Below, one piece after another: positions 6,070 to 52,302 of a stretch of 64,000 nucleotides of DNA; the stretch's first letter is position 1; each line of letters begins with the position of its first letter. The position numbers were made by a program, and so were the translations under genes. The stretch comes from a virus (taxonomy: Duplodnaviria; Heunggongvirae; Uroviricota; Caudoviricetes), in IMG/VR virus record IMGVR_UViG_3300017971_000191. One strand, 5' to 3'. The notes beneath the pieces are model-generated. The model was not told where the DNA came from and searched no databases. It saw only the letters and a list, made by a program, of their open reading frames with translations.

Positions 6070-7011
6070 CTACTGGAAGTCGACGCGAGCCAGACCGCTG
6101 GTGTGACCGATGGTCCCACCCATAGTCTCGTACGCGAAGAACTCCAGCATGTAGGCCTCACGACGAATGTACATCGTCGTATCTTCCAAAACGAAACTTT
6201 TGCCGATGAACTTGGGATCGGCAAAGTGGTACATCGTGTTGGTCGGCACGAGGCCCTTTTTGATCGTGATGATCCACTTGTAGCCCATGAACTCCTGGAG
6301 GGTCCACCCGTTCCGCATGATGTCTGCGGAAATGTCCCCACCCATTTCGTTCCGGGTCTGCTTGCAGACCTCCTTGATCGTGATGTTGTTCAGGAGGATG
6401 CAGTGCACCTCCAGGTTGCTGGGCGTGTTGGGCATCACCTTCACCGAGTCCCAGAGGGTGTCTCGGGTGATCCCACCAGCGATGACCTCGTGCTGGACCA
6501 CGCCCGACGTGGGCACGGTCAGACCGGGGCCGACCAGCGCGGTGTTGACGGCACGGATGAACTTGCCGTCCTCTTCCGCCAACATGTCCTTGATGGCGTT
6601 GTCCGACAAAACCTGCCGGATGTCCATCACCCAGGTGCGCAGTTCGTCGACGTCCTTGGTGAACCGAGGAGTGACGATGCGGTCGAACATCACGCGGTAG
6701 CGAGGACCGCGGATGTACAGGTTGACGGGCAAGGTCGCGAAAGGAATCGAGATTGCCGCGGGGCTCTCCGGCTCCTTGTCGATGACCTTGACGGGCTTGT
6801 CCGTGTCCACCTGCCGGTCCAACTCATCGTTGCCGATGGGGATGGGCGGCATGATGCGACGGAAGAAGCCATCTTCCCTCATCTTGACCCGGGTGAAGTC
6901 GTTGACGGCATCCACCGCCTGCTTCTCCAGCACGGGGTCACGAGAGGACAGCTTCTCGAAGATCGCCTCGTTGAGGAGTTTGGACTCCTCCATCGTCATC
7001 TGGGCACTCAT
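6070..7011 (-). CDS. putative major capsid / structural protein, about 313 aa
   Basis: It sits downstream of scaffold-like acidic proteins and a putative portal. It has no signal peptide and no recognisable enzymatic motif. The capsid call is positional and low-confidence. Confidence 0.4.
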   Translation of the reverse strand: MSAQMTMEESKLLNEAIFEKLSSRDPVLEKQAVDAVNDFTRVKMREDGFFRRIMPPIPIGNDELDRQVDTDKPVKVIDKEPESPAAISIPFATLPVNLYIRGPRYRVMFDRIVTPRFTKDVDELRTWVMDIRQVLSDNAIKDMLAEEDGKFIRAVNTALVGPGLTVPTSGVVQHEVIAGGITRDTLWDSVKVMPNTPSNLEVHCILLNNITIKEVCKQTRNEMGGDISADIMRNGWTLQEFMGYKWIITIKKGLVPTNTMYHFADPKFIGKSFVLEDTTMYIRREAYMLEFFAYETMGGTIGHTSGLARVDFQ

Positions 7012-19107: not shown

Positions 19108-22100
19108 CTAGGCCGATTCTAGCCCATTTTGCGCGGCCTCGCCAATAGCAAAAGGCTCCTCCTCGAAGAGGATGGGAAATCCGCCGACCAGCGGCGCCCC
19201 GCCCATCTCGTCGAGACCTCGCTTGAAGAAGGGGTTGAAGGAGACCTCACCACGCCAGATTTCCGCCGGCGTGGCAAAGCGTTTGAGGCCCCAGCCGGCT
19301 CCGGGGAGGTGGATCGGCTCCACACCTGGGACACCCGGACGCTTCAGGTGAACATCCTCCATAATCCGTTCACCAGCCCCCATACCCTCGTGGGACAGCT
19401 CGTAGCCGGACATCTCCTGTCGCTGGCGGAGCTTTTCCAAAGACTGCTTCTGCCCGGGCGTCAGACCGCCGGCAGCCTCGATCTTCTCCAACTCGCGGAT
19501 CTGCTCGGGGAGGGCTGCTTTCTGGCTCTGAGCGGTCTCGGCCCGCTCCTGCAAGATCGGCTGGGCCTTGCCCTTCAGCGAGCTATACTCCTGGAGGGCT
19601 TCCATTCCAGCCTCGGCCGGCTCCTTGATGACGTCCTGGATGTCCATCATGCCCTGGGCGATCCCGGCGTACGGAAGGACCATCCCTTTGGCCTTATCCC
19701 AGAGCGTGCCGTCTTTCCCGTAACCGTGGCGTTCCTTGACCCGGCTCCACACCCGCGACAGCGGATCGAGGATCGACTTGTCGTTGTGCAACTGGTAGTC
19801 CCGCTGGTTGATCGGGTTGCTGGGATCGAGGCCCTCGGCCGAGCGGCGCTGATAGAGTTCCTGTTGCTGCGAACCCAAACCGTAACTCCGGCCGGCTTCC
19901 TGGGCACCGCGGATCGTCGCCTCGGTGGTACCCGCGACAGTCTCTGCGCCCGCAGCCCCCGTACTGAAGGGGCTGAAAAACTCTCCAGCGAAACCCACAG
20001 CGTCCAGGGGATTCCCTGCGGCGGCTCCTTCGATCTGCGACTGCCGACGCTGGTTGACTTGCTCGCCAGCGCTACCGTGGCCGGTAAGACCATGCTGAAC
20101 AACATTCCTGCCGGTACCAATCGCGTCCAGGGCGATCGCCAGATGGCCCAGCGGCCCTACGCCCGGCTTGGCACCCTTGGCGGCGCCCCACAGCTTGCTG
20201 GCCCCGGGGATGCGATTCATCAGTCGGGTAAGCATCCCCGGTCCGCCCTTGGGAGACATGAACTTCATGTTCCGCAGCCACTCACCGGCCCGCGTGTTGC
20301 GGAGCCACGGCAAGTAGCCAGTCCCCTTCACTGGAGCCCGCCAGAGCGTGCTCAGTCCGCGACCGATCGGGGCCAGGCCCTGACGGATCATGGCCGCCTG
20401 GCCCAGCTCCCGCGACGGGTTGGCCGGGTTGGGCATGAAACGGAGGAACATGTCCTCGGCCCAGTCAGGCGTGTAGTTCCTCACACTCTCGGGCAAGGCA
20501 TCTCGCAGGTTCGTGGGGGCTTCGTCACTGAAGACACCCGTGCCGGGCTTGGTTCCAAGGATCGTATCGAAGGCGTTGTCAACGCCCTGCTCGATCCGCT
20601 GGTCCATGGCCGCCTGGGGGTCCGCGGCAGGAGCAGCCGGCTGCTGGACTTCAGGGGCAGCTTCGGGGGTCGGCTGTTGCTGGTCAATCTGGTAGCCGGC
20701 TGGCGGGATGCCGCTGCCGCCTGCTCCCTGCCAGCCGCCGGTACCGGAGAGTGGGGAGTATCGTTGGCCGCTGGTCAAGACCCGCATGGACTGCGGCGAC
20801 ATCAGCGTTCCCATGGTCATCACGCCACCCACGCCGGGAAGCATCTTGTTGACCTGTTGAATCAGCGGCACAGCCAGCGGGCTGCCCATCATCCCCGGGC
20901 TTGCGTAGGAACCCCACTGCGGCCGAGCCGCCGGCATGGAGCCGACTTGCTCAACACCGCCAGCACCTCCCGCAGCGGCTGCTCCTGCGGCATACGGATT
21001 TCCGCCTGTACCCGCCGAAGGTACAGTTGTACCCATCTGCGCAGAGGGACTCGGACCGACCCCCTGCGCAGAACGCTCGGCGGCTCCCTGGACTCCGCCC
21101 GAGGTGCCGGGGGGAGTCGAAGTCGGTTTCTTGTACGGAGCAGGAAGCGAGGCGATTTTCTCCAGCTCGGCGTCCGAGGAGAGTTTGAACCGGCCACCGA
21201 ACCAGCTCTTGCGTACCGGCTTCGGCTTACGCTGCTCGGTCTGCTCACTGGCCAGGCTCGGCCGGGGTGGCTCGAATCCGGGGCCAGGCTTGCGGACGAC
21301 GCTGTTCGGCGTGCGGCCGAAATTGGTCGAGCGGGCCAGGGCGGGGACAAAGGAGCTGCCCCGCTCCTCGCTGGTGCCGCCTCGCTGGGCCGCGCTGAGC
21401 AAGCTCTTCTTCAAGCCGGAGCCGTAATGCCGGACCAGCCAGTCGGGGTCGTGCTGCATGGAGTACATGCCACGAATCATCTCCGGCTCGAAAGGCGGCG
21501 GGTTCTTGTGTACACTGAGCGTGTTCACTCCGAATCGCTCGAACTCCCGGAGCATCGAGGGCCGGACCTTCGTGCCGATCGTATAATGGAGGACAGGGCG
21601 TTCAAGGTACTGGCCAACCGCCCTCCGAGGTTCGACATCCTCGTAGTCCTCACGAGGCGTGTACCGGTGTTCGAGCGTTGAATACGGAATGACGTCACCC
21701 GGAACTCCGTCTTCGTATTCCTCGGTGAGTCTGACATGGTTGATAAGCCCCCTACTGAGCAGCTCGGTGTTTCTCCGGTGAGCCTTGAGCCCTGCATCCT
21801 GCAAAGCCTGGCGGAAAGCCCACGTGAAGTAACGACGTCCCTCGCCAACGCCTTTATGTCGAACGATCTGACCCGGATTCGGGAGACCCTCCGAAAGCAC
21901 GTCCCCGGCTTCGACCGTATCACCCTTCTTGACTTTCAAGTCGAAGCCCTGGCCCACATAGTGCTGCTCGCCGTCGATGGTGACGTAGTTACCACCCGCG
22001 GGAGCTTTCTCGATGCGACCCACGGTCCCATCGACCTGGGCATGTGCCGCGCCGCCTTTCATTACCCGTGGCGTCTGGACTAGCTGGTTGATCCGCTCGA

Positions 22101-23148
22101 ACCCCGAGACAGCCTTGTCCTCCCCGGCCACGCCTCCGCCGTGCTTGGCCGAGATCTGCGCTTGGGTCAGAGGCTCGGAGAGAGCCTGGGCGGCTGTGAG
22201 TCCAACCATCTCACCAAGTCCCGGAAGGTTACCGCGTTCACGTACACCCACGTCTCGCGAGTAAACGCCGCCTTCGGGCGAACCTCCGATAATCGGAGAC
22301 CTGACCAGGATTCGATCATGTCCCATTCGTTGGAGGTGCTTGAGGATCTTGGGGGTGAGATGGGTGTTTCGTTTGTAGGGTCCTGCGTCATAGGCCAGCA
22401 GCGCTCCTTCGTTATCCATGTCGTTGGTGTCGACGGGCATGCCGCGGAGGACCTTGGGTGCCTCCTCCTCGTCCTCGTCGACGACGACCAGCCGGTGAGC
22501 CACCTGGTTGAGCTGCTTGCTGAGGAAGCCGGCGTCCCGGGTGGCGGACTTCAAGGCGATGACGCCGTGGCGGGCACCGTAGGTGCCGGCCCAGTATTCT
22601 TCCGGCGACAAGCCTTCACTGTAGCTGCGAAGGATGGGGATGGGAAGCGGCCGTCCCCGGTGGTCCACGTAAAGCATGTCGGAGCCGCGGAGGCTTGCCA
22701 GGTTCATCTTGTTGCCGCGCGAACCGGACAGAACCTGAAGGGCCAGCGGGTTGCCCTCCTCCAGCGACTCCTTGAGGATTGCCTCTTGTTGGGGTTCTAT
22801 CTCCCGGCCGATGGCCCGCACGATCAGCTCTTCCCGTCTCCTGTCGTCCAGGTCATCGCGGTCAAGGATCTTCGCCAGGGCGTTGGTGAGCTTCTGGCGA
22901 GTCTTGACGGCGGCACGGGCTTTGCCCAGGTGTTTGACGCCGAAGGCCATGCCCCCGGACTCCTGGGACGCGCGGCTGCCAATCTCCAACAGCTTGTGGG
23001 AGATCTCCCGATACTTGTCGGGATGCTTCTCGGCGACCTCGCGCAACAGACTGGAGAGCCCCTTCTTGTCGAGGACCCGGTCGTAGTCGCGCATATCGTC
23101 GGGCAGCGTCTCGTTGACGAGATGCTGCCCCAGAGTTGCCGTTCGCAT
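19108..23148 (-). CDS. RNA polymerase beta-prime C-terminal half (regions F, G, H) plus a roughly 800-aa Gly/Pro/Gln-rich C-terminal extension
   Basis: SGSRGN...GARHG...LVV matches beta-prime region F. SEPLTQAQISAKHGGGVAG matches region G (GEPGTQLTMRTFHIGG). Confidence 0.7.
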   Translation of the reverse strand: MRTATLGQHLVNETLPDDMRDYDRVLDKKGLSSLLREVAEKHPDKYREISHKLLEIGSRASQESGGMAFGVKHLGKARAAVKTRQKLTNALAKILDRDDLDDRRREELIVRAIGREIEPQQEAILKESLEEGNPLALQVLSGSRGNKMNLASLRGSDMLYVDHRGRPLPIPILRSYSEGLSPEEYWAGTYGARHGVIALKSATRDAGFLSKQLNQVAHRLVVVDEDEEEAPKVLRGMPVDTNDMDNEGALLAYDAGPYKRNTHLTPKILKHLQRMGHDRILVRSPIIGGSPEGGVYSRDVGVRERGNLPGLGEMVGLTAAQALSEPLTQAQISAKHGGGVAGEDKAVSGFERINQLVQTPRVMKGGAAHAQVDGTVGRIEKAPAGGNYVTIDGEQHYVGQGFDLKVKKGDTVEAGDVLSEGLPNPGQIVRHKGVGEGRRYFTWAFRQALQDAGLKAHRRNTELLSRGLINHVRLTEEYEDGVPGDVIPYSTLEHRYTPREDYEDVEPRRAVGQYLERPVLHYTIGTKVRPSMLREFERFGVNTLSVHKNPPPFEPEMIRGMYSMQHDPDWLVRHYGSGLKKSLLSAAQRGGTSEERGSSFVPALARSTNFGRTPNSVVRKPGPGFEPPRPSLASEQTEQRKPKPVRKSWFGGRFKLSSDAELEKIASLPAPYKKPTSTPPGTSGGVQGAAERSAQGVGPSPSAQMGTTVPSAGTGGNPYAAGAAAAGGAGGVEQVGSMPAARPQWGSYASPGMMGSPLAVPLIQQVNKMLPGVGGVMTMGTLMSPQSMRVLTSGQRYSPLSGTGGWQGAGGSGIPPAGYQIDQQQPTPEAAPEVQQPAAPAADPQAAMDQRIEQGVDNAFDTILGTKPGTGVFSDEAPTNLRDALPESVRNYTPDWAEDMFLRFMPNPANPSRELGQAAMIRQGLAPIGRGLSTLWRAPVKGTGYLPWLRNTRAGEWLRNMKFMSPKGGPGMLTRLMNRIPGASKLWGAAKGAKPGVGPLGHLAIALDAIGTGRNVVQHGLTGHGSAGEQVNQRRQSQIEGAAAGNPLDAVGFAGEFFSPFSTGAAGAETVAGTTEATIRGAQEAGRSYGLGSQQQELYQRRSAEGLDPSNPINQRDYQLHNDKSILDPLSRVWSRVKERHGYGKDGTLWDKAKGMVLPYAGIAQGMMDIQDVIKEPAEAGMEALQEYSSLKGKAQPILQERAETAQSQKAALPEQIRELEKIEAAGGLTPGQKQSLEKLRQRQEMSGYELSHEGMGAGERIMEDVHLKRPGVPGVEPIHLPGAGWGLKRFATPAEIWRGEVSFNPFFKRGLDEMGGAPLVGGFPILFEEEPFAIGEAAQNGLESA

Positions 23149-26321: not shown

Positions 26322-29300
26322 CTACTGATCCAAAATCTGTACCTGGTCGTCCAGGGACAGCTTGCCGGCTGCGTAGGCCGCCCTGGCGTCGGCCAAAGTG
26401 TGAAACTTCCGCACCGATTGTTTGCTTCGTGACTTGGTGGCGTGGTAGAGACCGCCGACGAACTCCTGCCCGGGAGCATGCACCGGGGACTTGAAATCGG
26501 CCGGGCTGAGCAGGTTGGCCGAAGGCAGCATCCGCTCGTAGGCCTCCTTGACGGCCGCCGCGTCCGTGGGGACGTGGAAGTTCATCTGGTCGCCGTCGAA
26601 GTCGGCGTTGAACCCCTTGACAATCAGGGGGCTCACTTGCATCGTGCTCCCCTTCACCAGCTTGGGGCGGAAGGCGAGGATGCCAAACTTGTGCAGCACG
26701 GGGGCGCGGTTGATGAACACCGGCCGCTCGTCCATTTCCTCGACGAGCGTTTCCCGGGCCAGGGGGGTACGATCCTTGATCTGCTGGAGGGCCCGGGTCA
26801 GAGGAACCCCCTGTCGACGCATACGCCTGGCGATGAATTTTCCGTAAATATCGAAGGCCGCATCCTCGGGCAGGCCCACCGTGTCCATGTCGAAATCGGG
26901 GTTGGGGGTGATCACGGACCGGCCGACGTTGTCCACTGTCGTGGAGATCAGCTTACGCTGCACGGTGCCGAACTTGGGAGAGCTTCCAAAAACGCTTTTG
27001 AGGATTCCCCGCACGTTCTTCTCGCGGCTCTTCTGGCTGATCGGATCTCCCAGGCCGGTGACTGCCTTGAAGGCGTGGTAGACGGCCAGCCGCTCCGGGC
27101 CAGCACCCTCGTCCCCCAGCTCCTTCTTCATGGCCGCCAGGTTATCGTTGGCCTCCATCAGCTCCTTGTAGAGGTAGTTGGCGTCGGAGATCATCGGCAG
27201 GTCGTTGTCCATCATCGAGACCGGGCGGAACGCCGGCGGCAGCACCGGGGCCCGCTTCAACACCCAGTCGCCAGGATGGATACCGAGCTTCTTGGCCCGC
27301 TTGAGATAGTCGAGCTTGCGGACAGCTTGGTCCCTCTCCGTCTTGCTGCCTTGCGAGACTTGGGCCCTTGCCATGGACAACTCTTTGTCCAAGTTGAGGG
27401 CTTGCAAGGCTTTACCGATGGCCTGGGCGCCGGTGCCGAACTTGGGCAGCTCATGGTCCCCGGAGATGACGGCCTCGAACTTGGCCTTGGTCAGCCCGAG
27501 CACGCGACGGATCGGCTCCTCCATCACCGGATTGGGCATCGGCTCGGTCAGGCGGATCGCAGACCATCGCCGACCGGAGTGGCCGCCGGTGAGCTTCTTG
27601 TCGAACAGACCGCCCCGGATGGGACGCAGGCCCCGGCCCCAATCGACGCCGTCGTTCTTCATCAGGTTGCGATCCCCGGCCAGCTCGTCGACGTCCTTGT
27701 CGGTCAGCGCCATGATGTTCGTCTGCGTGCCCTCGCGGACGACGTTGATCCCCGAGGCCCGGAGTTGCTCGACGAATTTATGGTAGGCCATCGGCACCCG
27801 AGGCATCGGCGGGTTGTGCCCCATCATGAACTGGAGCCAGTAGTCCTCGTTCCGCTGACCACGAATGGCGCCCACGTCTTCCAGGTTGTGGACCGCTCCA
27901 TGGCTAAGCAGGGCGTTGGTGTCCAGCAGGGCGACTCGCTTGGAACCTTGCTTGCCGCCCTTGGCCGGGGCGTCCTCGGCCGTGTAGGCGCCGCCGCCTC
28001 GTCCCTGCTCCTTGGCTTCTGCTTGATGGTGGAGCTTCATGAAGAAGCGATTACCGGTAGGGATGCCGCGGATCTTGGAGTCGTTGCTAGGGTCGATGAT
28101 GTCCTCGGTGTCCGACAATCCGGCCTTGCGGAGCTGCTCGCGGGCCCAATCCACGTAATCGCGGCTGTCGTCCCAATCCTCGACCCGAATCGGCTTGCCC
28201 TGCTTGGCAGCCAACTTGCCCAACCACAGCTCGATCTTTTGCGACGGATTGGTCCGGCCGATAATCCCCAGCGGATTCAGCAGCACCTCGAAAGGCTTCC
28301 CGTCCTGCCCCTGCGGCATCTGCGCGTCGGGGATGATCGCGGAAATGACGCCCTTGTCTCCGTATCGTCCTGAGAGCTTGTCTCCCTTTTGCATGGGAGA
28401 CGTACTCTTGACGAGGACCACCGGCCCTTTCTTGCCGTCAACAACGTCGGTAACGATTCCGGGATCGTTATGATCCCAGACAATACTATGATCTGCATGG
28501 GACGCCTGCTTCCTCTTGTGGACCTTGTTGTGCGACAGCTCCCGCTGGCGTGCCGCCAAGATCAACGGATGCCCCTTCTCGACCTCGGTTCCCGGTTTGA
28601 CGACTCCGCGGTCGTCCAGCGTCTCCAGGATCTTGCGCTCGTATCGGGACGGAAACAGGCTGACATAGGTCTTCTTACCGATCTTCGTTCTGTCGTCGAC
28701 CTCCAGCTCATTCTGGTACATGTGCTCCGAGGCCAGCTTCTTGGCAAAACCCTCGGAGATCACGATGGCGTCTTCGTGGTTTTTCCCCTGCCAGGAGACG
28801 TAGGCCACCCGGGCGTTGCGGCCCAGGGCCGTGGCGCCGCGCTCGTCGGTGTAGTTCGAGCGGGCCAGCAAGGCACCAGGAGCAAACCTCTGGCCGGGCC
28901 GGACCAGGGGTGTCTGGTGCAGGTATGTCTTCCGGTTGAAAGGGAAATGGTGGTACAGCTCGATGCTGTCCTCGCTGCCGTCGTCGTAGCGGACCTTCAT
29001 GCCGTCGTCGTCGATACCCAGCACCCGGCCGCCGCGTTTGGCGTGAACCGCCCCCATCTGCTTGGCGTACTCCTCCTCGTAGCTTCGGCCGCCACGGGTC
29101 CCGGGCATCGCCGACTGGACCCAGGGGGACTCAGGCTCGACCAGGGGCAGCGCCTGGGTGAGCATCCGCGAGGCCATGGCCATCCGCTGCCCCTTGACGG
29201 CGCCCTTCATGGGGACCAGGTTGCCCAGCGGGGAGAAGGCGTCCTCGAAATTGGGCATCACCAGGTTGACGTCCCGCTTCTTGGCCCAGATCATCTTGCT

Positions 29301-30764
29301 GCCCTTCATGGCGATCACCCGCTTTCCGGGGCGGGCCAGCGCTCTGGGGAAGGTGATCACCGAGTCGGCAACATCCTGCGGAGAAAGCCACTTCAGCTTG
29401 CCGCTACGGGGGTCCTTGAACTGCGTGTAGATCCGGCCGTTCTTCCCCTTGCGGGCGTTGCGGGTCATGTAGACGTCCACGCCCACACGAAAGCTCTCCG
29501 GCGTGCGTAGCGGGTCCACGAACCCGAAGTGGCTGGGTTGCACGCTACGGGCCTCCGCGGGCACGGCATCTAGCGAGGGGATACCTCCTTCTCCGAGCCG
29601 GCTGATGGAGTATTGCTTGTCGAAGATCTCGGCGGGGTTGATTTCCTCCAGGGGCTGTCCGAGACCTGAGTGCAAGATTGCAGACTCGACCTGTGGCCGT
29701 AGGGCTGAAGAAGGCATGCCCGAGAGGTTACCCTTGCGGGCGGCCTTCCAGAGAAGCTGGCGGCGGAGCCGACCGTGGTCCTTGGCAATCCTCTCCGCCA
29801 GAAGATCCTCCGGGCCCAGGAAATGCTGGTACGCCAGAGAATCACGGTCATCCACATCAGCCTCGTCGCGAGAAATAGCAAGTAGCTTTCGAGTCGTGTC
29901 AAGGATGGCCTCCTTGCTCATGCGATCGTACGGTTTTCCCAGGGTACGCCCGGTGACCTCGGGGTCCAGCTCCATCGAGGTCCAACGATCGACGAGCTTC
30001 TGCGCCGTCGTCCGCTCCTCGTCCTCCTGGTCGGCGCGGGTCAGCACGTGTCCCGCGTACTTCTTGATGGCGGCACCTTCATCCTTCGGATAGTTGGCCG
30101 CATACAGGTCGTCGCCCCAGATCTCGCGAAGCTCCGCGGGAGTCGCTCCCATCGCTTTAAGAAGCGGCATGAGGGGGAGCTTGGCGTTGTGGAGCCGAAC
30201 GTAGAAAACGCCCTTCTCAGGATCAAGAAAGTAGCGATGAGACACCCCTTTTCCAGGAAGGATGTTCGCATGGGCTTCGATCTCTCCATTTTCACGGACA
30301 CGAGTGAAGACACCGCCCCGCAGCCGCTGCTGGTTGCGAAGCGTATTCTCGTTGCCCCTATGGACGAACGTCCCCCGGGGCGTCAGATGCGGGACCGTGG
30401 CCACGACCTGGCGACGGCGATCCAGCACGCCGCCGGTCTCGTTGTCGACGAGTTCCCAGGTACCACGCAATCGCCGGCCGAGAGTTCGGCCGCCGAGGAT
30501 GGCTTCCTTCTGTTGGCGCAGGGTGAAGGTGTCCGGGTCCTGCCAGTCCACCTTGCTGAGCCGCAGGGTGTGGGTCTGATTTGAGACCGGCTCGATCCCC
30601 TGGGCCGCTACCAGCACCTGATCATAGATGTTGCGGCGCGTGGCGTCAGTGTCTCCGAACTCCCGTGTCTCCTCGTCAGTGGGAGGTGGAGCGGCAACAG
30701 GTGCAGGTGCCCCCGACAGCAGATTGGACGGCGTCGGCGGCATCAGGTTCAGATCGAGCGGCAT
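26322..30764 (-). CDS. fused RNA polymerase subunit: a compact beta subunit joined to the N-terminal half of beta-prime
   Basis: Beta-subunit motifs: RGTFVHRGNENTLRNQQRLRGGVF and GDKLSGRYGDKGVISAIIPDAQMP...LLNPLG. Beta-prime motifs: VLPPAFRP and RAPVLHKFGILAFRP...NADFDGDQMNFHVP. Confidence 0.8.
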   Translation of the reverse strand: MPLDLNLMPPTPSNLLSGAPAPVAAPPPTDEETREFGDTDATRRNIYDQVLVAAQGIEPVSNQTHTLRLSKVDWQDPDTFTLRQQKEAILGGRTLGRRLRGTWELVDNETGGVLDRRRQVVATVPHLTPRGTFVHRGNENTLRNQQRLRGGVFTRVRENGEIEAHANILPGKGVSHRYFLDPEKGVFYVRLHNAKLPLMPLLKAMGATPAELREIWGDDLYAANYPKDEGAAIKKYAGHVLTRADQEDEERTTAQKLVDRWTSMELDPEVTGRTLGKPYDRMSKEAILDTTRKLLAISRDEADVDDRDSLAYQHFLGPEDLLAERIAKDHGRLRRQLLWKAARKGNLSGMPSSALRPQVESAILHSGLGQPLEEINPAEIFDKQYSISRLGEGGIPSLDAVPAEARSVQPSHFGFVDPLRTPESFRVGVDVYMTRNARKGKNGRIYTQFKDPRSGKLKWLSPQDVADSVITFPRALARPGKRVIAMKGSKMIWAKKRDVNLVMPNFEDAFSPLGNLVPMKGAVKGQRMAMASRMLTQALPLVEPESPWVQSAMPGTRGGRSYEEEYAKQMGAVHAKRGGRVLGIDDDGMKVRYDDGSEDSIELYHHFPFNRKTYLHQTPLVRPGQRFAPGALLARSNYTDERGATALGRNARVAYVSWQGKNHEDAIVISEGFAKKLASEHMYQNELEVDDRTKIGKKTYVSLFPSRYERKILETLDDRGVVKPGTEVEKGHPLILAARQRELSHNKVHKRKQASHADHSIVWDHNDPGIVTDVVDGKKGPVVLVKSTSPMQKGDKLSGRYGDKGVISAIIPDAQMPQGQDGKPFEVLLNPLGIIGRTNPSQKIELWLGKLAAKQGKPIRVEDWDDSRDYVDWAREQLRKAGLSDTEDIIDPSNDSKIRGIPTGNRFFMKLHHQAEAKEQGRGGGAYTAEDAPAKGGKQGSKRVALLDTNALLSHGAVHNLEDVGAIRGQRNEDYWLQFMMGHNPPMPRVPMAYHKFVEQLRASGINVVREGTQTNIMALTDKDVDELAGDRNLMKNDGVDWGRGLRPIRGGLFDKKLTGGHSGRRWSAIRLTEPMPNPVMEEPIRRVLGLTKAKFEAVISGDHELPKFGTGAQAIGKALQALNLDKELSMARAQVSQGSKTERDQAVRKLDYLKRAKKLGIHPGDWVLKRAPVLPPAFRPVSMMDNDLPMISDANYLYKELMEANDNLAAMKKELGDEGAGPERLAVYHAFKAVTGLGDPISQKSREKNVRGILKSVFGSSPKFGTVQRKLISTTVDNVGRSVITPNPDFDMDTVGLPEDAAFDIYGKFIARRMRRQGVPLTRALQQIKDRTPLARETLVEEMDERPVFINRAPVLHKFGILAFRPKLVKGSTMQVSPLIVKGFNADFDGDQMNFHVPTDAAAVKEAYERMLPSANLLSPADFKSPVHAPGQEFVGGLYHATKSRSKQSVRKFHTLADARAAYAAGKLSLDDQVQILDQ
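26986..27004. repeat. degenerate copy of the palindromic motif (CCAAAAACGCTTTTGAGGA), in the CDS and translated ILKSVFG
   Basis: Imperfect match; weak. Confidence 0.25.
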
Positions 30765-42656: not shown

Positions 42657-44138
42657 TCACGCCGCCGCTGCCTCCAACTCTTCGACCACGGTCGGAGCCG
42701 AATCCGCCAGGCGACCGGCGGCGTTCACGCCGCGATCGTCCCAGTAGACGTCGGCCAACACCTTGTCGGAAGCATCGTCCGGTTGGTCGGGGTTGTGGTT
42801 GACGAAGTCATACGGGATCTCGTTCTCCTTGAGCCACTTCTTCACCATCCCCGTGTCGCCGCGGACGGTGAAGACGATGACCCGGGCACCGATGCTCTTG
42901 AACTTCGTCAGCCACTTCTTGGCGCCGGGGCGAGGAGGGCCGATCGACTTGGGATCGAAAGGCTCCTCTTTCACCGCAATCGTGCCGTCCAGGTCGACGG
43001 CCACGGTGGGAATGTGTTCGTCGTCGGCCGCGAGCTTCTGGAGAACCTCAAAAGCGGTTTTGAGGAGTTCCTCGTCCGGCGTCTCTGCCGCCTGCCGCTC
43101 CTTCTCCGCCGCGTCGTCCTCCCCCGCCCGCCGCAGCACTTCACTGACCTCGTCGTCGGAGAGGACCTGGCGGATCTTCATGCCGCCGCCGATAAGCCAC
43201 TCACCGCCCTGCATCCTCGGGGCCTTCTTCCGGTAGTGCCCACCCTCCGGCACCTGGTCGCGGACATCGCCGGTCGGGCTCGCATCGGCGACTGCTTGCC
43301 AGTCGACATCGTCGGGCAGCTCGACCTCGGCCCATACCCGGCCGGGCTGAATCCGATCCCGCTTCGACCGCAGATGCGGAGCGGACGGCAGCGCTCCCGC
43401 GTGCCAGCCGGGCCTCGGGGCAAAGCCCTCGGTGGGGATGTTCTCCGCCTCGACCCACTCCTCCCGGGGCACCGGGTTCGTCTTGTCGATGAACAGCGGG
43501 AACAGCTCCCCGGGCCGCGTCGGTAGGGTGCGGAAGAGCTTGTAGGCCTGGACCGTGTCTTCCGCCGCCTTGGCGAAGGCGCCGTCCTCGATGGCCTTTT
43601 TGGTGTTGCCGTACTCCAGCCACCACTTGAGCTGGGGCACGGTTAGCGGGAAGATGCTCCCCAGGCCCTTCCAGCCACGCTCGTAGTTGGCCAGGTAGAC
43701 CTTGCGAGCCTGGGCCTCGGTAGTTGTCCCCAGGACCACCTTGTGCTCGTCGAACTTGCCGCTGCCGGGGTCGACCTGGTTGACGACGAAGACCAGCTCA
43801 CTGTGGCGATCGGGGCCGAGAAAGACGTCCACCTGGTCGCCGTCCTTGCCCTCGCTACGGGAGAAGTACCCGTAGTCGTGCTGCATCTCGATCTCCCAGC
43901 CGTCGCCGGATCGGATGGAGCCCTTGGGGTTCTCGATGACGATGGTGAGCCCCTGCCAGGAATACTTCCCCTTGCGGTAGTTGCCGGCCTCGGCTTGGGC
44001 CTCAGAGGGATTGGTGTCAGTCGCCTGCCTGGCCTCGGTTAGGGTGGCCGCCAGCTTGGTAAGCCCGGCAAACTCTCCCCCCAGCTCCGCCAGAGTCAGG
44101 CCCTTCGGGAGCAACAAATCGGCGACTTTCTCGTTCAT
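42657..44138 (-). CDS. two-domain protein with a C-terminal HAD-superfamily phosphatase domain (VDLDGT motif)
   Basis: ATG (MNEKVADLL) chosen because csrA occupies the opposite strand over the track's N-terminal extension. The DxDGT motif plus downstream Lys and Asp fit HAD motifs I-III. It contains an in-frame palindromic 20-mer. Confidence 0.5.
   Translation of the reverse strand: MNEKVADLLLPKGLTLAELGGEFAGLTKLAATLTEARQATDTNPSEAQAEAGNYRKGKYSWQGLTIVIENPKGSIRSGDGWEIEMQHDYGYFSRSEGKDGDQVDVFLGPDRHSELVFVVNQVDPGSGKFDEHKVVLGTTTEAQARKVYLANYERGWKGLGSIFPLTVPQLKWWLEYGNTKKAIEDGAFAKAAEDTVQAYKLFRTLPTRPGELFPLFIDKTNPVPREEWVEAENIPTEGFAPRPGWHAGALPSAPHLRSKRDRIQPGRVWAEVELPDDVDWQAVADASPTGDVRDQVPEGGHYRKKAPRMQGGEWLIGGGMKIRQVLSDDEVSEVLRRAGEDDAAEKERQAAETPDEELLKTAFEVLQKLAADDEHIPTVAVDLDGTIAVKEEPFDPKSIGPPRPGAKKWLTKFKSIGARVIVFTVRGDTGMVKKWLKENEIPYDFVNHNPDQPDDASDKVLADVYWDDRGVNAAGRLADSAPTVVEELEAAAA
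43047..43066. repeat. palindromic motif CTCAAAAGCGGTTTTGAGGAGT, copy 3, inside the CDS and translated LLKTAFEV
   Basis: The exact 22-mer is shared with the copy at 17386. Confidence 0.6.
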
Positions 44139-44228
44139 TTTCCACCCTTGACGATGTCCCCCATGAGGGATATACTTCTTAGATCGGATGCGGTCGTGAC
44201 CGGAGGCTACTGTAGGAAGGAGTCCATG

Positions 44229-44408
44229 ATGTTGGTTCTTTCGAGGAAGAAGAACGAGAGCATCGTTATCAACGACGACATCACCGTGGTCGTTGTTGAG
44301 ATCCGAGGCGACAAAGTACGCCTTGGCATCGAGGCACCAAAGGAGGTGCCTGTCCACCGACGTGAGGTCTTCGATGCGATCAAGCGCAACGAAGACGTGA
44401 CTACCTAG
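44229..44408 (+). CDS. csrA: carbon storage regulator CsrA/RsmA homolog
   Basis: MLVLSRKKNESIVINDDITVVVVEIRGDKVRLGIEAPKEVPVHRREVF aligns along its length with canonical CsrA ([48 protein letters not shown]). An AAGGAG ribosome-binding site precedes the ATG. It is the only convincing plus-strand gene. Confidence 0.8.
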   Translation: MLVLSRKKNESIVINDDITVVVVEIRGDKVRLGIEAPKEVPVHRREVFDAIKRNEDVTT

Positions 44409-44971
44409 CTCGTCTCTCCCTTGTGACTTTCGTTCCGTCCGAGGACACTTTTCCTCCGTACCGCGACCGTGATATGGAAATCGAATTGGCCGTCCTTGGG
44501 CAACGACGTGAGTCCGTACGAGCGACGAAGCCGTTGGAGATCTGGGGAGTGCACCCTCAGCATCCAACACTTCGACATTTCGGGCCAACCATGAGGCGTG
44601 ACCTCGACCAAACCGCCGAGCCGATAACGGAACCGCTTGCCGCGCTCTGAGATTCGGTCAGGTCCGCCAATCCGGGCAAGCTCCTCCGGTCGCATGACCG
44701 AGATGTGAGCTTCGAGCTGCTCCCCAGGGCCCGAGGGGGGCAGCTCCACGCCCGCTTCGTCCATCGCCGCGAAGACGCCGCGGACCAGGGCATTGGGGAC
44801 ACCGAGCATGATCCAGTCCCCGTTCTCTCCCTGCTTGTGGAAGAGCATGCCGCTGAGCACGTACGCCGGCCTCGGTGGATCTGCCGCCTGCTTGGTGAGC
44901 AGCCGGTAACCCAGCTCGTAGAACCAGCGGACGGCCGGAGACGGCACGTCGGTGACGGAGATCAAGGTCAC
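44405..44971 (-). CDS. 2H phosphoesterase superfamily protein (LigT / 2',3'-cyclic phosphodiesterase-like)
   Basis: Two H-x-T/S-x motifs (AHISVM and FHITVA). A GTG start at 44971 overlaps the upstream stop as GTGA; an ATG at 45073 is the alternative. Confidence 0.55.
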   Translation of the reverse strand: MTLISVTDVPSPAVRWFYELGYRLLTKQAADPPRPAYVLSGMLFHKQGENGDWIMLGVPNALVRGVFAAMDEAGVELPPSGPGEQLEAHISVMRPEELARIGGPDRISERGKRFRYRLGGLVEVTPHGWPEMSKCWMLRVHSPDLQRLRRSYGLTSLPKDGQFDFHITVAVRRKSVLGRNESHKGETS

Positions 44972-45754: not shown

Positions 45755-45989
45755 GTCTCGGACTCCTTGGAGGAGTGACTTCCCGAGATCCCCTACCTCG
45801 GGTCCTCGGTTCCGACTTGCGGCCGGAACAACACGACAGCCGAGCGGGTGTGCTGCCGTCCCGCCTGTCACTCGGCCTTTCCGCCATGTGACGTACCAGG
45901 CCCGACGAAACATCCTAGTTACGCCGGGACACCTAACCTGCCGACACCCGCGGCAAAGTCACTGCATCAAGGATACCGGATACGGAGGC

Positions 45990-46259
45990 TCAACGTCGAG
46001 AGGATTTCGCGACTCTGGCGCCGGTGAACTCCTGGGCCCGATGGAAACGGGCCGGGCAGTCACAACGGGCCGTCAGCTCGGCCAGGGCTTTGCGGACCGA
46101 TTCGTCTGCATGCCCCCAGATCGGGCCCACCTGCCCACCGGACAACTGGCACTCGGCGTACACACATCGTTGCCGCCTGCCGGCGGAGTTCTTCGCCGAG
46201 GTGAAATGGATCGTCGCCTCCGCGGTCTTTCGTTTGCTGGTTCGCTTGCGTCCACGCAT
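45990..46259 (-). CDS. small basic hypothetical protein
   Basis: 89-aa ORF. Confidence 0.35.
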   Translation of the reverse strand: MRGRKRTSKRKTAEATIHFTSAKNSAGRRQRCVYAECQLSGGQVGPIWGHADESVRKALAELTARCDCPARFHRAQEFTGARVAKSSRR

Positions 46260-46403
46260 GGCTGGTCCATGAAAAAAGGCTGGACGAGCGTCCGAACTCG
46301 ACCAGCCCCCGGTGCGCCTCCAACAGGAGACTCTCTTATTGTAAGTGGCATTTGGCGGTAAAGCCAGCCACTCACACGGGTTATCGGCCGGTCCACCGGC
46401 CGG

Positions 46404-48239
46404 CTAGTCGTCCTCTCTTTGCTTCAACTTCGACATACGCCTGGGTTTACGAGCAGCCAGGCTGTCGAGAAATTGCTCCTTCTTCTTTTTGTCGGGTTCC
46501 TTCGGCGGTTTAGACGTCAACGGGATTGGCTTGGTGGAGGGGTCCACCGGGGTCAGGGCCAGCGACTGGCCGGTACTCTGCTCGAAAGCCGCCAGGAACT
46601 GCTTGGCCTCCGCGGAGAGCGGGGCGCCGACCGAGTGGTAGGCCACCAGCTCGGCCTGGATCTTCTTGGCCAGGGCGGCCAGGGAATCCGGGTGCATCTT
46701 CCCGAGCGGAGTCTGAAGCTCCTGGGCGCCGGCAGCGACCATGCCGGTAACCGGCGGGATCGCCGCACCAGGCTCAGACCAAGCGGGCGTCGGCGACAAG
46801 TTCACCGTTGGAGCCGGTCCCGGCACCGGGGTCGTCGGCCCCGGATTGGGATGCTCGTGCGGCACCTTCTGGGGCTTGACGTGCTTGGGAACCTTCTTGG
46901 CGATCACAGACGGGTTGACCGGCTTGGAGATGTAGCCGGCTTTCTGGGCCTGGGCCTCAGTGGTCGGCGCGGCCGCGCAGGCCTCGGTGAGATGCTCCGG
47001 CCTAATCCCTAACTTGTGTAACGCCTGGGCCGTTTCCCACAGTGCGTTGGCTACCTTTTCGTTGTTGGGCGAGATGTTGTGGTCGTCCGCTAGCTTCTGG
47101 AGGAAGAGGCTCTTGGTCAACTCCGTGATCGAGTGAACGGCACCGGCCAACATCGCCATCGTCTCCTCTCCGAACTTGTCCAAGCCGTTATTGACCGCAG
47201 ACATTGCCATCGCGCAGTCCTTGGAGGGAGCAGCGATGATCTCCTTGCTTTTGAAGGGCAGTTTCATTTTGGGAGTCTCGAACTTGCCCATCAGCTCTTG
47301 GTGGAGCTTCTCCTGCTCGGCGAGGTAGGCAGCCTCCTGCTGTATCAGCTTCATCTCGTCCTCGAAGTTGAGCCCGGCCGACTCCGCCGCGGCCGTAGCC
47401 GAGACGATGCCGCCGGCCTTGAGGATTTCCAGGATGGCGTCCGTCCCGGGGATCACGCCGCCCGGCTTGGGCGGCAAGGCCAGTTGGTTCTTCGAGGCCC
47501 AGCCCAGCGTCGACTGGGAGAGGTTCGTCTGGGGCAAACGGTTGTGCTCTCCGGGGCAGAGCCGCATGAACTGGTCGACCTTGACCACCAGCTCCTTTTC
47601 GAGCTTGGGGATCTCTGCCGCGGAGAACATGTCCCCCGCAGCCTTCCGCTGCTCGATGAGCTTGTAGATGTTGCCTATCGACTTCAGCAGGGATTTCTTC
47701 CGCCCTTCCTTCTGCGAGGCCGTCATCTCCACGACCTCCTTGGGCTCCTTGCCCTGGCGGCGGCGAAGGACTTCGGCCGCGTAGGCTCCGGCCCACTCCT
47801 GGGAGACCTGGCAACCGCAGGGATTCATCCGGTAGACAAGACGCAGCGCCTGCGTCTGCTGGCCGGGAACCGGAGGCGTGACGGGGTCCTGGTTGAACTT
47901 GGGCTTCTTCTGCCCCACGGCCGTCACGGTCGGCGAGCCCAGCGGCACCTTCTCCTGACCCTCGCGCAATCCATTGACCACCGACTGGCAGTTGGGGCAG
48001 CGGATCTGCGGCTCCTTCCAGGTGTGCATCGCATCGTTGACGTCCTGACTGGGAGGATTCTCGATGTTCGAGGGCACGTTAATCGGTGGTTGGTTCGTGT
48101 CCATGATTGCCGGCTGCTGGACGTACGCGATTGGTCCCGATTTTCCCAGCTCATAAAGCGGCACCGGGGGCGGCAATAGTTGAGCATTGAATCCCATGCT
48201 CGGCCCGAGCCAGCCTTTGAGCTTATCCAGTGTTGCCAT
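46404..48239 (-). CDS. large hypothetical protein (611 aa, Pro-rich C-terminus)
   Basis: Long ORF. Confidence 0.5.
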   Translation of the reverse strand: MATLDKLKGWLGPSMGFNAQLLPPPVPLYELGKSGPIAYVQQPAIMDTNQPPINVPSNIENPPSQDVNDAMHTWKEPQIRCPNCQSVVNGLREGQEKVPLGSPTVTAVGQKKPKFNQDPVTPPVPGQQTQALRLVYRMNPCGCQVSQEWAGAYAAEVLRRRQGKEPKEVVEMTASQKEGRKKSLLKSIGNIYKLIEQRKAAGDMFSAAEIPKLEKELVVKVDQFMRLCPGEHNRLPQTNLSQSTLGWASKNQLALPPKPGGVIPGTDAILEILKAGGIVSATAAAESAGLNFEDEMKLIQQEAAYLAEQEKLHQELMGKFETPKMKLPFKSKEIIAAPSKDCAMAMSAVNNGLDKFGEETMAMLAGAVHSITELTKSLFLQKLADDHNISPNNEKVANALWETAQALHKLGIRPEHLTEACAAAPTTEAQAQKAGYISKPVNPSVIAKKVPKHVKPQKVPHEHPNPGPTTPVPGPAPTVNLSPTPAWSEPGAAIPPVTGMVAAGAQELQTPLGKMHPDSLAALAKKIQAELVAYHSVGAPLSAEAKQFLAAFEQSTGQSLALTPVDPSTKPIPLTSKPPKEPDKKKKEQFLDSLAARKPRRMSKLKQREDD

Positions 48240-48934: not shown

Positions 48935-48941
48935 TCCGTCC

Positions 48942-49904: not shown

Positions 49905-49916
49905 TCTGCCTCCTGT

Positions 49917-50561: not shown

Positions 50562-50562
50562 T

Positions 50563-51350: not shown

Positions 51351-51386
51351 TGGACAGTTCCTCGTCACACACGTCTTTTGTCGAGT

Positions 51387-52250: not shown

Positions 52251-52302
52251 CAGACAGTTTACTCCTGGGGTCGTTGTTCGAGTTTAGTCGACTGACCGGC
52301 CT

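What the first reader, a model, noticed from the sequence alone, without database searches (positions are those of the whole stretch)
44229..44408. A virus-encoded CsrA on the opposite strand, the only plus-strand gene in 64 kb
The 59-aa product aligns along its whole length with CsrA/RsmA, including the GxxAPxEVxVHRxE RNA-binding core, and the start has a good ribosome-binding site. It is divergent to the HAD gene and convergent with the 2H gene, with overlapping stops. A phage-borne global post-transcriptional regulator would redirect host carbon, motility or biofilm programmes. Its opposite orientation suggests separate, possibly early, transcription.
Basis: partly seen in the sequence, partly recalled or inferred. 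Interest (0 to 1): 0.6.

Follow-up and report, generated by a model that had tools for sequence, protein, structure and literature searches.

The report
Jumbo-phage CsrA in antisense cassette
A giant virus of Planctomycetota bacteria carries its own, almost host-identical copy of the RNA-binding regulator CsrA, as a small self-promoted gene pointing against all its neighbours; phage CsrA genes are already known, but this conserved layout is a clear case to test.

Summary
Window 44229..44408 (+) encodes a 59-aa protein that matches Pfam CsrA end to end (93 bits, E 1e-26). It has a strong ribosome-binding site, its stop codon overlaps that of the convergent 2H-SAK gene, and it is the only credible plus-strand gene in 64 kb.

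The window belongs to a jumbo phage of at least 236 kb, with fused RNA-polymerase beta/beta' genes, a ribonucleotide reductase and mostly unknown genes. Its CsrA core differs by one residue (I20V) from the invariant core of Planctomycetota chromosomal CsrA and lacks their variable C-terminal tail. Synonymous sites are saturated, so the similarity reflects selection, not recent capture.

Fifteen related phage loci carry the same arrangement: csrA antisense, directly after the 2H-SAK gene. Eleven of these cassettes were aligned, and they share a sigma70-like promoter (TTGnCn-N17/18-TAnnnT, about 50 nt before the ATG) and a GAAAGGAGTC ribosome site. In other relatives 2H-SAK and InPase form one fused gene.

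Best reading: a self-transcribed, probably early, GGA-binding translational regulator that acts on host and/or phage mRNAs. Read-through from the surrounding operon would oppose its expression.

Phage-encoded CsrA is already documented, so this is a new member of a known kind. Targets and timing are inferred, not shown.

The parts
44148..44176 (+). sigma70-like promoter TTGACG-N17-TATACT for csrA; the -35 box overlaps the ribosome site of the divergent InPase gene on the other strand
   Evidence: It matches 10 of 12 consensus positions and is the best site in the 10-kb scan. It is one of 3 sites at 10/12 or better in 64 kb, both strands, against 0.6 expected. TTGnCn-N17/18-TAnnnT recurs at the same distance from the ATG in related phages.
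44177..44228 (+). predicted 5' leader (about 45 nt from the inferred start site) with four GGA motifs, including the ribosome site AGGAAGGAGTC at 44214-44224
   Evidence: Sequence. The 4 GGA motifs put it in the top 8% of leaders in the window. The GAAAGGAGTC block is conserved in 11 phages. The leader fold is not better than shuffles, z = 0.28.
44229..44408 (+). csrA coding sequence, 59 aa, core-only CsrA
   Evidence: Pfam PF02599 at 93 bits and PHROG 9500. It is 88-98% identical to Planctomycetota CsrA. Against the L191 phage copy pN is 0.054 and pS 0.70.
44405..44971 (-). convergent 2H-SAK phosphoesterase gene (188 aa); its stop codon overlaps the csrA stop by 4 nt
   Evidence: PF22547, E 3e-11. 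The same gene call appears in L001-L003. Relatives are aligned.
42657..44141 (-). divergent InPase gene (493-494 aa) with a weakly HAD-like C-terminus; it must be transcribed through the antisense strand of csrA unless it has its own promoter
   Evidence: PF18823, E 1e-49. HAD-type families match only below threshold. The gene is fused to 2H-SAK in relatives.
46266..46306 (-). intrinsic terminator (9-of-10-bp stem with one U-U mismatch, then CUUUUUU) marking the upstream boundary of the minus-strand transcription unit that encloses csrA
   Evidence: Sequence; the hairpin is present in the fold. No terminator-like site lies between the 2H-SAK and InPase genes except a weak hairpin inside csrA at 44342-44321.

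Best explanation
This is a functional, phage-encoded member of the CsrA/RsmA family, carried by a jumbo phage (at least 236 kb) that most likely infects Planctomycetota of the order Pirellulales.

Shown here: the protein is a complete CsrA core with the canonical RNA-binding residues. It is nearly identical to the host-type core and is under strong purifying selection. It sits in a compact cassette (promoter, leader of about 45 nt, 59-codon ORF) on the strand opposite to every other gene. The cassette lies between the 2H-SAK and InPase genes, and this layout is conserved in a clade of about 200-kb phages.

Inferred: a housekeeping-sigma RNA polymerase, probably the host's, fires the TTGACG-N17-TATACT promoter soon after infection. 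The protein dimerises with itself or with host CsrA and binds GGA motifs in mRNA leaders. This raises the cell's CsrA activity and re-sets translation of host mRNAs (metabolism, surface or motility functions, possibly defence systems) and perhaps phage mRNAs and its own GGA-rich leader. Transcription of the enclosing minus-strand operon (2H-SAK through csrA-antisense to InPase) then collides with and pairs against the csrA message, which would limit its expression to a time window.
For: Identity:
- Pfam, PHROG and solved-structure matches cover the full length.
- Residues L2, L4, R6, K7, V40, V42, R44 and V47 are present.

Viral context:
- The exact protein and its neighbours are on 7 contigs from JGI, Logan and ENA, the longest 236 kb.
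- The window has phage-type fused RNA-polymerase genes and a ribonucleotide reductase.

Host type:
- The best 120 protein hits and the 80 kept genome loci are overwhelmingly Pirellulales/Planctomycetota, at 81-98% identity.
- In those genomes csrA is a stand-alone chromosomal gene.

Selection rather than recent capture:
- Best nucleotide identity to any sampled cellular gene is 86%, and third-position identity is 42-67%.
- Codon usage fits the phage at +0.35 bits per codon.
- pN is 0.054 against pS 0.70 versus the L191 copy.
- In the collinear phage L110, CsrA (78% identical) is the best-conserved shared protein, against 57% for the RNA polymerase and 41% for the reductase.

Conserved cassette:
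- 15 related loci have csrA antisense directly after 2H-SAK, most with overlapping stops.
- The promoter is conserved in sequence and position: mean best score 8.1/12 against 6.55 in controls, and 5 of 14 cassettes reach 9/12 or more against 1.8% of controls.
- Only 3 sites in 64 kb reach 10/12.

Precedent: knockdown of the csrA homologue of E. coli phage PTXU04 reduces plaque size (PMC11879866).
Against: There is no transcript, binding or phenotype data.
- The leader is not significantly structured.
- GGA counts in the leader are high but not exceptional; 6 of 71 other genes equal it.
- GGA-in-loop sites upstream of phage genes are only mildly enriched, 75 against 55 +/- 7, and ribosome sites confound the count.
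- The conserved CCCCTTG block may partly reflect the ribosome site of the InPase gene on the other strand.
- The phage's own polymerase promoters are unknown, so use of the host polymerase is not proven.
- The host assignment rests mainly on CsrA similarity and G+C content.
- Only 64 kb of at least 236 kb was examined for antagonists.
Confidence: 0.7

Rival explanations
1. The phage CsrA mainly controls the phage's own mRNAs. It would act as a temporal translational switch, for example repressing early or structural messages through their GGA-rich ribosome sites, rather than reprogramming the host.
For: Most phage genes have GGAG-type ribosome sites (47 of 71). GGA-in-loop sites are mildly enriched upstream of phage genes. 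The gene is under phage-like codon usage and long-term vertical inheritance.
Against: The RNA-binding core has stayed within one residue of the host core. That fits best with acting on the RNA repertoire, or partners, that the host protein already recognises. No distinctive phage-specific motif was found. The enrichment is weak and confounded by ribosome sites.
Confidence: 0.2
2. The protein works as a decoy or dominant partner. It would soak up host antagonists of CsrA (FliW or unknown sponge RNAs), or form mixed dimers with host CsrA, so that host CsrA activity changes indirectly. The missing tail would make it insensitive to host control.
For: Cellular homologues carry a variable, net-acidic tail and have a median length of 73 aa. 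IMG/VR viral homologues have a median of 64 aa (Mann-Whitney p = 1e-8), and this protein, at 59 aa, is among the shortest. A sister phage has a covalent tandem CsrA-CsrA in the same slot, which would prevent mixed dimers. Planctomycetes are listed among FliW-bearing phyla (PMC4682653). I51 is present; I/V51 is a FliW-contact residue in other species (PMC7829508).
Against: Within the syntenic phage clade the tail is not consistently absent (59-82 aa). The asparagine is at position 54, not 55. FliW is not adjacent to host csrA. In C. jejuni a 60-residue truncation still binds FliW (PMC7829508), so escape cannot be inferred from length alone.
Confidence: 0.1
3. The selected element is the antisense transcription itself, which would throttle 2H-SAK and InPase expression. 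The CsrA reading frame would be a passenger.
For: The stop codons overlap and no terminator separates the convergent genes. Orientation is conserved across the clade.
Against: Purifying selection on the protein is strong (pN 0.054 against pS 0.70), and the CsrA domain is kept in all 15 cassettes, including a tandem duplication. In the relative L108, csrA is co-directional and elsewhere yet still retained.
Confidence: 0.04
4. The gene is cellular: a mis-assembled or mis-binned host fragment, or a host gene next to a prophage.
For: Amino-acid identity to Planctomycetota CsrA is very high. G+C of the gene is 53% against 63% for the window.
Against: The same junctions appear in seven contigs from three assembly pipelines. 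No neighbour is shared with any of 80 cellular loci, apart from one weak 30%-identity match that is unrelated to the cassette. Host csrA genes have the same low G+C, for amino-acid reasons. The synteny is conserved in 15 related phage loci.
Confidence: 0.02

Closest known systems
Phage- and plasmid-borne CsrA/RsmA homologues (Sobrero & Valverde 2020, PMC7366521; Campa et al. 2021, PMC8450108; PTXU04 gp28 in Adler et al. 2025, PMC11879866; annotated csrA of Vibrio crassostreae phages such as MW824385)
   Same: A short CsrA-family protein encoded by a virus whose host has its own CsrA, and highly similar to the host protein. It is proposed to manipulate host post-transcriptional control, including defence systems. 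In PTXU04 the gene lies three genes from a polyvalent-protein gene, and its knockdown gives small plaques. In Vibrio phage 219E41.2 it lies in a block of small genes next to a divergent promoter region.
   Different: Here the carrier is a jumbo phage of at least 236 kb, apparently of Planctomycetota, with its own multisubunit RNA polymerase. The gene is a self-promoted antisense cassette in an otherwise one-directional genome, at the junction of two polyvalent-protein-type domains, and is conserved as such across a clade. GenBank phage copies are only 45-67% identical.
Chromosomal CsrA of Planctomycetota (Pirellulales, Thermoguttaceae, Planctomycetaceae)
   Same: Residues 1-55 are identical except I20V in the 16 cellular proteins aligned, and 81-98% identical across the wider hit lists. 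All RNA-binding positions are the same.
   Different: It lacks the 10-20-residue variable, net-acidic tail (59 aa against a median of 73). The genomic context and codon usage differ. Synonymous sites have diverged, with at most 86% nucleotide identity.
E. coli CsrA / Pseudomonas RsmE (solved structures 1Y00, 2JPP)
   Same: Full-length alignment at E about 1e-14, with the same length class and conserved L2, L4, R6, V40, V42, R44 and the GxxAPxxVxVHR motif. E. coli csrA is known to repress its own translation through GGA sites at its ribosome site (own knowledge); the leader here has four GGA motifs.
   Different: About 50-55% identity. No CsrB/RsmZ-type sponge RNA was found in the window. The regulators of activity are unknown.
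Excludon-type or convergent antisense gene arrangements (own knowledge: Listeria excludons)
   Same: A gene on the opposite strand whose transcript must overlap that of its neighbours, which allows mutually exclusive expression.
   Different: Only the DNA layout is shown here. No transcripts are known, and the embedded gene is a trans-acting RNA-binding regulator rather than a divergent operon.
Polyvalent proteins of phages and conjugative elements (domain families InPase PF18823 and 2H-SAK PF22547)
   Same: The two flanking genes carry these domains. In many relatives the two domains sit in one protein, for example L108, L261, L212 and more than 20 database proteins.
   Different: In this clade the two domains are separate genes with the csrA cassette exactly between them. 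Whether csrA inserted into a fused gene or the fusion is secondary was not resolved.

Membership tests
CsrA/RsmA family (Pfam PF02599) | Profile match above the curated threshold covering the whole domain | tested here: met
   93.2 bits against a cut-off of 27, E 9.6e-27, residues 1-52 on profile positions 1-52 of 53. PHROG 9500 matches at E 5.6e-21.
CsrA/RsmA family (Pfam PF02599) | Small protein (about 55-75 aa) that aligns end to end with structurally solved members | tested here: met
   59 aa. phmmer gives E 1e-14 to 2.5e-13 against 1VPZ, 7YR6, 2BTI, 1Y00, 2JPP, 5DMB and 1T3O over residues 1-56. The fold itself was not predicted.
CsrA/RsmA family (Pfam PF02599) | Conserved RNA-binding residues in strands beta1 and beta5 (L2, L4, R6, R/K7; V40, V42, R44, I/V47 in E. 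coli numbering; their importance is from own knowledge of alanine-scanning and RsmE-RNA structures) | tested here: met
   M1-L-V-L-S-R-K-K and V40-P-V-H-R44-R-E-V47 are all present.
CsrA/RsmA family (Pfam PF02599) | Homodimer that binds GGA motifs in RNA and changes translation or stability | not testable with these tools
   Needs biochemistry. The only indirect data are four GGA motifs in its own leader and a mild GGA-loop enrichment upstream of phage genes.
CsrA/RsmA family (Pfam PF02599) | A dedicated antagonist (CsrB/RsmZ-type sponge RNA or FliW) | tested here: inconclusive
   No Rfam family other than a tRNA was found. No GGA-dense non-coding region was found. No FliW appeared among the window proteins scanned in Pfam. 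Only 64 kb of at least 236 kb was available.
FliW-controlled CsrA subgroup | I/V51 and N55 on the C-terminal helix plus a C-terminal extension (PMC7829508) | tested here: inconclusive
   I51 is present. The asparagine is at position 54, as in all the host homologues aligned. The extension is reduced to 4-5 residues. fliW is not next to host csrA.
Phage-encoded CsrA (known class) | Encoded on a bona fide virus genome rather than on cellular DNA | tested here: met
   The same block is on contigs of up to 236 kb. Phage-type fused RNA-polymerase PHROGs match, with 29-31% identity to the Salmonella phage Arash and Vibrio phage D181 polymerase. There is a weak major-head hit. Collinear IMG/VR relatives of 200-226 kb exist. 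No terminase or portal gene lies in this window.
Phage-encoded CsrA (known class) | The host lineage has its own CsrA, the correlation reported in PMC8450108 | tested here: met
   The closest cellular homologues are chromosomal csrA genes of Pirellulales and other Planctomycetota. The host assignment itself is inferred.
Antisense / excludon-like regulatory arrangement | Overlapping transcripts from opposite strands with reciprocal effects on expression | not testable with these tools
   The DNA layout fits: stops overlap, no terminator separates the genes, csrA has its own promoter, and the enclosing unit starts after the terminator at about 46.3 kb. No transcript data exist.

The most novel reading that the evidence does not exclude
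The csrA cassette is a conserved 'timer' module of a clade of Planctomycetota jumbo phages. A host-polymerase promoter would express a host-mimicking, tail-less CsrA immediately after DNA entry to take over the host Csr regulon, possibly including defence systems. The phage's own read-through transcription of the polyvalent-type 2H-SAK/InPase operon would then silence it by collision and antisense pairing. The cassette would have arisen by insertion at the domain junction of a fused polyvalent-protein gene, and in a sister lineage it would have evolved into a single-chain tandem CsrA that cannot mix with host subunits.
Probability: 0.25. Interest if true: 0.6.

Novelty: new member of a known kind. 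Interest (0 to 1): 0.4.

Why it matters
CsrA is a master post-transcriptional regulator, and what phage copies of it do is almost untested; a single knockdown phenotype has been reported. Almost nothing is known about CsrA control in Planctomycetota.

This locus offers a well-defined system. The protein differs from the host core by one residue and lacks the tail. It has a recognisable promoter and a conserved antisense placement inside an operon of putative host-takeover enzymes. Fifteen natural variants exist, including a tandem fusion.

It makes several questions directly testable: when such genes are expressed, whether they act on host or phage mRNAs, and whether antisense embedding is used as a timing device in one-directional jumbo-phage genomes.

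Tried and rejected
1. Recent capture from the host. Rejected: nucleotide identity is at most 86% and third positions are near saturation. The low G+C of the gene (53%) comes from its amino-acid composition, and host genes share it.

2. A CsrB/RsmZ-like sponge RNA in the window. Rfam found none, and no GGA-dense non-coding stretch exists; the densest windows lie in coding DNA.

3. A structured leader that presents GGA in loops. The leader fold is no better than shuffles, z = 0.28.

4. Genome-wide GGA-hairpin enrichment. It is mild (75 against 55 +/- 7; 58 +/- 8 in coding controls) and confounded by ribosome sites, so it is not decisive.

5. Synteny through the InPase protein, or through CsrA itself, in IMG/VR. 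No locus shared further neighbours. Synteny was recovered only with a 2H-SAK alignment.

6. Escape from FliW through loss of the tail. This could not be settled: the residue register differs, tail length varies within the clade, and a 60-residue C. jejuni truncation still binds FliW (PMC7829508).

7. The longer ORF from TTG 44148 and the ATG at 44226. Both rejected.

8. 'HAD gene' as the main identity of the neighbour. Only sub-threshold HAD hits were found; InPase is the significant domain.

9. Comparisons of dN/dS that involve L253 are invalid because of an indel and were ignored.

10. Structure prediction was not run. CsrA is an intertwined dimer, and the sequence match to solved structures already covers the whole protein.

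Full report
**Observation**

Window 44229..44408 (+) is an intact 59-codon ORF. Its product matches Pfam CsrA (PF02599) over the whole domain with 93.2 bits, E 9.6e-27, against a curated cut-off of 27 bits. It also matches PHROG 9500 'CsrA-like regulator' at E 5.6e-21, and every solved CsrA/RsmE sequence at E about 1e-14 over residues 1-56.

The canonical beta1 and beta5 residues are present: L2, L4, R6, K7, V40, V42, R44 and V47. Their role is from my own knowledge of CsrA mutagenesis and RsmE-RNA structures.

The ribosome site AGGAAGGAG(TC) ends 4 nt before the ATG at 44229. Three results support this start. The exact 59-aa product is recorded from JGI, Logan and ENA gene calls, whereas the 60-aa product from the ATG at 44226 is not. 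Every homologue begins MLVLSRK. The Pfam match starts at residue 28 of the longer TTG-initiated ORF.

The plus-strand TAG (44406-44408) and the minus-strand stop CTA (44405-44407) of the next gene overlap. The divergent gene starts at 44141, 87 nt from the csrA start.

**Strand claim**

A codon-usage model trained on twelve long genes of the window places 72 genes (the list), covering 93% of the sequence, on the minus strand. csrA scores +0.35 bits per codon, within the range of the phage's own genes. All other plus-strand ORFs of at least 25 aa outside those genes score negative or trivially. Independent annotations of the same DNA over 20 kb show csrA as the sole plus-strand gene.

One correction applies. 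The 'HAD gene' is primarily an InPase-domain gene (PF18823, E 1e-49). It has only a sub-threshold HAD-like C-terminus (DLDGT; PF00702 E 0.007). The '2H gene' is a 2H-SAK phosphoesterase (PF22547, E 3e-11).

**Is it a virus?**

The exact CsrA and its neighbours occur on seven contigs, and the flanking InPase protein occurs on a contig of 236,137 bp.

The window encodes two very large fused RNA-polymerase beta/beta' proteins (26322..30764 and 19108..23148). These hit phage RNA-polymerase PHROGs and are 29-31% identical, over 96% of their length, to the polymerase of Salmonella phage Arash and Vibrio phage D181.

The window also encodes:
- a class II-type ribonucleotide reductase;
- a tRNA;
- a weak major-head match at 6070..7011, the gene with one of the best codon scores;
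- sugar-nucleotide and methyltransferase genes;
- many genes without any family.

Collinear relatives are catalogued as viral contigs of 200-226 kb. No terminase or portal gene lies in this window, so the viral call rests on these features together.

**Origin of the protein**

The 120 best database hits are 88-98% identical. Where they are named, they are Pirellulaceae, Planctomycetia or Planctomycetota, apart from two rows labelled only 'bacterium' and 'Candidatus Peribacter sp.'. A scan of one genome per species returns mostly Pirellulales, Thermoguttaceae and Planctomycetaceae.

In two such genomes csrA is a stand-alone chromosomal gene, with long intergenic regions and no fliW beside it.

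Aligned with 16 cellular proteins, the phage protein differs from the invariant core (residues 1-55) only by I20V. It ends after four more residues, where the cellular proteins carry 10-20 variable, net-acidic residues.

The DNA tells a different story from the protein. The best nucleotide identity to any sampled cellular gene is 86%, and third-position identity is 42-67%. The gene's G+C of 53% is shared by host csrA genes. Its GC3 (0.72) and codon score fit the phage. The similarity therefore reflects long-term purifying selection on a host-like protein, not recent transfer.

**Comparative anatomy**

The InPase protein led to two related jumbo phages.

L110 is collinear with the window: RNA polymerase 57%, reductase 41% and 2H-SAK 57% identical. 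It has the same arrangement, with 2H-SAK, antisense csrA, then InPase. Its CsrA (78% identical) is the best-conserved shared protein.

L108 (polymerase 59% identical) has 2H-SAK, InPase and NUDIX fused in one 573-aa protein, and a co-directional, more divergent csrA 8 kb away.

A three-sequence 2H-SAK alignment was used to scan the metagenome and IMG/VR collections and gave 142 loci. In thirteen of them, plus L197 and L110, csrA lies directly downstream of 2H-SAK on the opposite strand. The stops usually overlap by 4-20 nt, and InPase follows where the contig extends far enough. These are the loci whose 2H-SAK is closest to the window's. More distant loci lack csrA within 3 kb, and three have 2H-SAK fused in frame to InPase.

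More than twenty database proteins also combine the two domains. The cassette therefore occupies what is elsewhere a domain junction of a polyvalent-type protein. The direction of the change (insertion or later fusion) was not resolved.

Between the window and L191, pN is 0.054 and pS 0.70. Other pairs give dN/dS of about 0.1-0.5, with dS near saturation.

**Expression signals**

TTGACG-N17-TATACT at 44148-44176 (+) matches the sigma70 consensus at 10 of 12 positions. Only three sites in the whole window, on either strand, reach that score, against 0.6 expected. All three lie upstream of a gene or gap in the right orientation.

An alignment of eleven cassettes shows two conserved blocks. The first is CCCCTTGnCnTGTCCCCCGAAnGGGnGTA, which reads as TTGnCn-N17/18-TAnnnT with a C-run/G-run palindrome in the spacer. 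The second is the ribosome site GAAAGGAGTC.

The best promoter score in the 100 nt upstream averages 8.1/12 in 14 cassettes, against 6.55 +/- 0.9 in random windows of the same loci. Five of 14 cassettes reach 9 or more, against 1.8% of controls. In ten cassettes the -10 box ends 52-60 nt before the ATG. Part of the first block may also serve as the ribosome site of the InPase gene on the other strand.

No plus-strand terminator follows csrA. No convincing minus-strand terminator lies between 2H-SAK and InPase; the only candidate is a weak hairpin inside csrA. A strong minus-strand intrinsic terminator at about 46306-46266 marks where the enclosing transcription unit must restart.

The layout therefore forces the csrA message and the 2H-SAK-to-InPase message to overlap in antisense. 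This is shown at the DNA level only.

**Mechanism**

The best-supported account is as follows. The cassette is transcribed on its own from a housekeeping-type promoter, most simply by host polymerase soon after infection. The protein forms a CsrA dimer and binds GGA sites in mRNA leaders, adding CsrA activity to the infected cell. Read-through from the enclosing operon opposes its expression later.

The steps have different standing:
- Shown: identity, integrity, selection, conserved cassette, conserved promoter-like element, and the antisense geometry.
- Inferred: which polymerase acts, the timing, the RNA targets, and autoregulation.

Autoregulation is suggested by four GGA motifs in the leader. 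That count is matched by 6 of 71 other genes, and the leader has no significant structure.

This is suggestive but confounded by GGAG ribosome sites.

No sponge RNA or FliW was found in the window.

**Tail length**

Among homologues retrieved with the same query, viral-contig proteins are shorter than cellular ones: median 64 against 73 aa, Mann-Whitney p = 1.2e-8. Their tails are also less acidic, with mean net charge -0.5 against -2.0.

This suggests that viral copies may shed a host control element. Within the syntenic clade, however, the tail varies from 59 to 82 aa. The FliW-contact residues known from other species are only partly matched: I51 is present, but the asparagine is at 54 rather than 55 (PMC7829508). 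I therefore keep this as a rival or auxiliary idea.

One sister phage (L256 = L200, 224 kb) has a 163-aa tandem CsrA-CsrA in the same slot.

**Comparison with what is known**

CsrA genes in phages were reported for 30 of 2517 phage genomes (PMC7366521). They were surveyed in GenBank and IMG/VR, with the proposal that they suppress host defences such as CRISPR-Cas (PMC8450108). In E. coli phage PTXU04, knockdown of the csrA homologue, which lies three genes from a polyvalent-protein gene, reduces plaque size (PMC11879866).

GenBank phages with annotated csrA (Vibrio phages of about 50 kb) are 45-49% identical to this protein. In one of them, csrA sits in a block of small genes beside a divergent promoter region. 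A scan of IMG/VR found 269 viral stretches encoding relatives.

The finding is thus a new member of a known kind. Four things are new here: the carrier (a Planctomycetota-type jumbo phage with its own polymerase), the near-identity to the host core, the conserved self-promoted antisense cassette at a polyvalent-domain junction, and the tandem variant in a relative.

**Verdict**

Interest is moderate at 0.4: the gene class is known, but the conserved architecture gives a concrete, testable regulatory design.

Noticed in passing
L256 3555-4046 (-) = L200 (224-kb contig): In the same antisense slot after 2H-SAK, a sister phage encodes a 163-aa protein with two CsrA domains in tandem (Pfam: 2 stretches, 120 bits). 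This is a single-chain 'dimer' that could not mix with host subunits.
   Followed up: partly
L108 10001-11722; L261; L212; database proteins: 2H-SAK and InPase domains are fused in one protein in relatives, whereas in the window's clade they are separate genes with the csrA cassette exactly at the junction. The direction of the change is unresolved.
   Followed up: partly
window 44154-44170 and the equivalent spacer in L110, L191, L195, L196, L198, L199, L201, L246, L256: The spacer of the csrA promoter carries a conserved C-run/G-run palindrome (consensus GTCCCCCGAAAGGGGGT). It could be an operator or an RNA hairpin in the InPase leader on the other strand. It remains unexplained.
   Followed up: no
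window 45755-46403 (-): A 650-nt stretch without a credible gene. It contains a strong intrinsic terminator (about 46306-46266, stem then CUUUUUU) and folds somewhat better than shuffles (z = -2.6). It has no Rfam match, and no sigma70-like promoter was found for the downstream operon.
   Followed up: partly
window 53548-53624 (-) and 53823-53851 (-): A tRNA gene (Rfam 50.8 bits) to which ARAGORN could not assign an anticodon, suggesting an unusual anticodon loop. One of the three best sigma70-like sites of the window (TTGACT-N17-TACAAT) lies about 200 nt upstream of it.
   Followed up: no
window 26322-30764 (-) and 19108-23148 (-): Two giant genes (1480 and 1346 aa) encode fused RNA-polymerase beta/beta' modules. 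They are 57-59% identical in the related phages L110 and L108, and about 30% identical to Salmonella phage Arash and Vibrio phage D181.
   Followed up: partly
window 48704-48934 (-); L110 5710-5925: A 76-aa protein consisting only of a GerE/LuxR-type helix-turn-helix that also matches sigma70 region 4 (E 1.8e-14). It is conserved in the relative L110 and is a candidate transcription factor or sigma-region mimic.
   Followed up: no
window about 48000-64000 (-): A cluster of sugar-nucleotide and modification genes: DegT-type aminotransferase (E 6e-93), GDP-mannose dehydratase/epimerase, a hexapeptide transferase, glycosyltransferases, several methyltransferases, HpcH aldolase and MaoC dehydratase. 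It may serve DNA or virion glycosylation.
   Followed up: no
L115, L140, L141, L150, L167, L185, L188 (genome contigs): Contigs binned as Patescibacteria or Peregrinibacteria carry CsrA 83-95% identical to the Planctomycetota/phage type; L141 encodes a 59-aa tail-less form. This may reflect mis-binning, phage contigs or real transfer.
   Followed up: no
IMG/VR loci L004-L083 versus genome loci L111-L190: Virus-contig CsrA homologues are systematically shorter than cellular ones (median 64 against 73 aa, p = 1e-8) and have less acidic tails.
   Followed up: partly
window 41484-42119 (-): An SPFH/Band-7 domain protein (E 8e-13) is encoded three genes downstream of the cassette, an unusual membrane-scaffold-type gene for a phage.
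   Followed up: no
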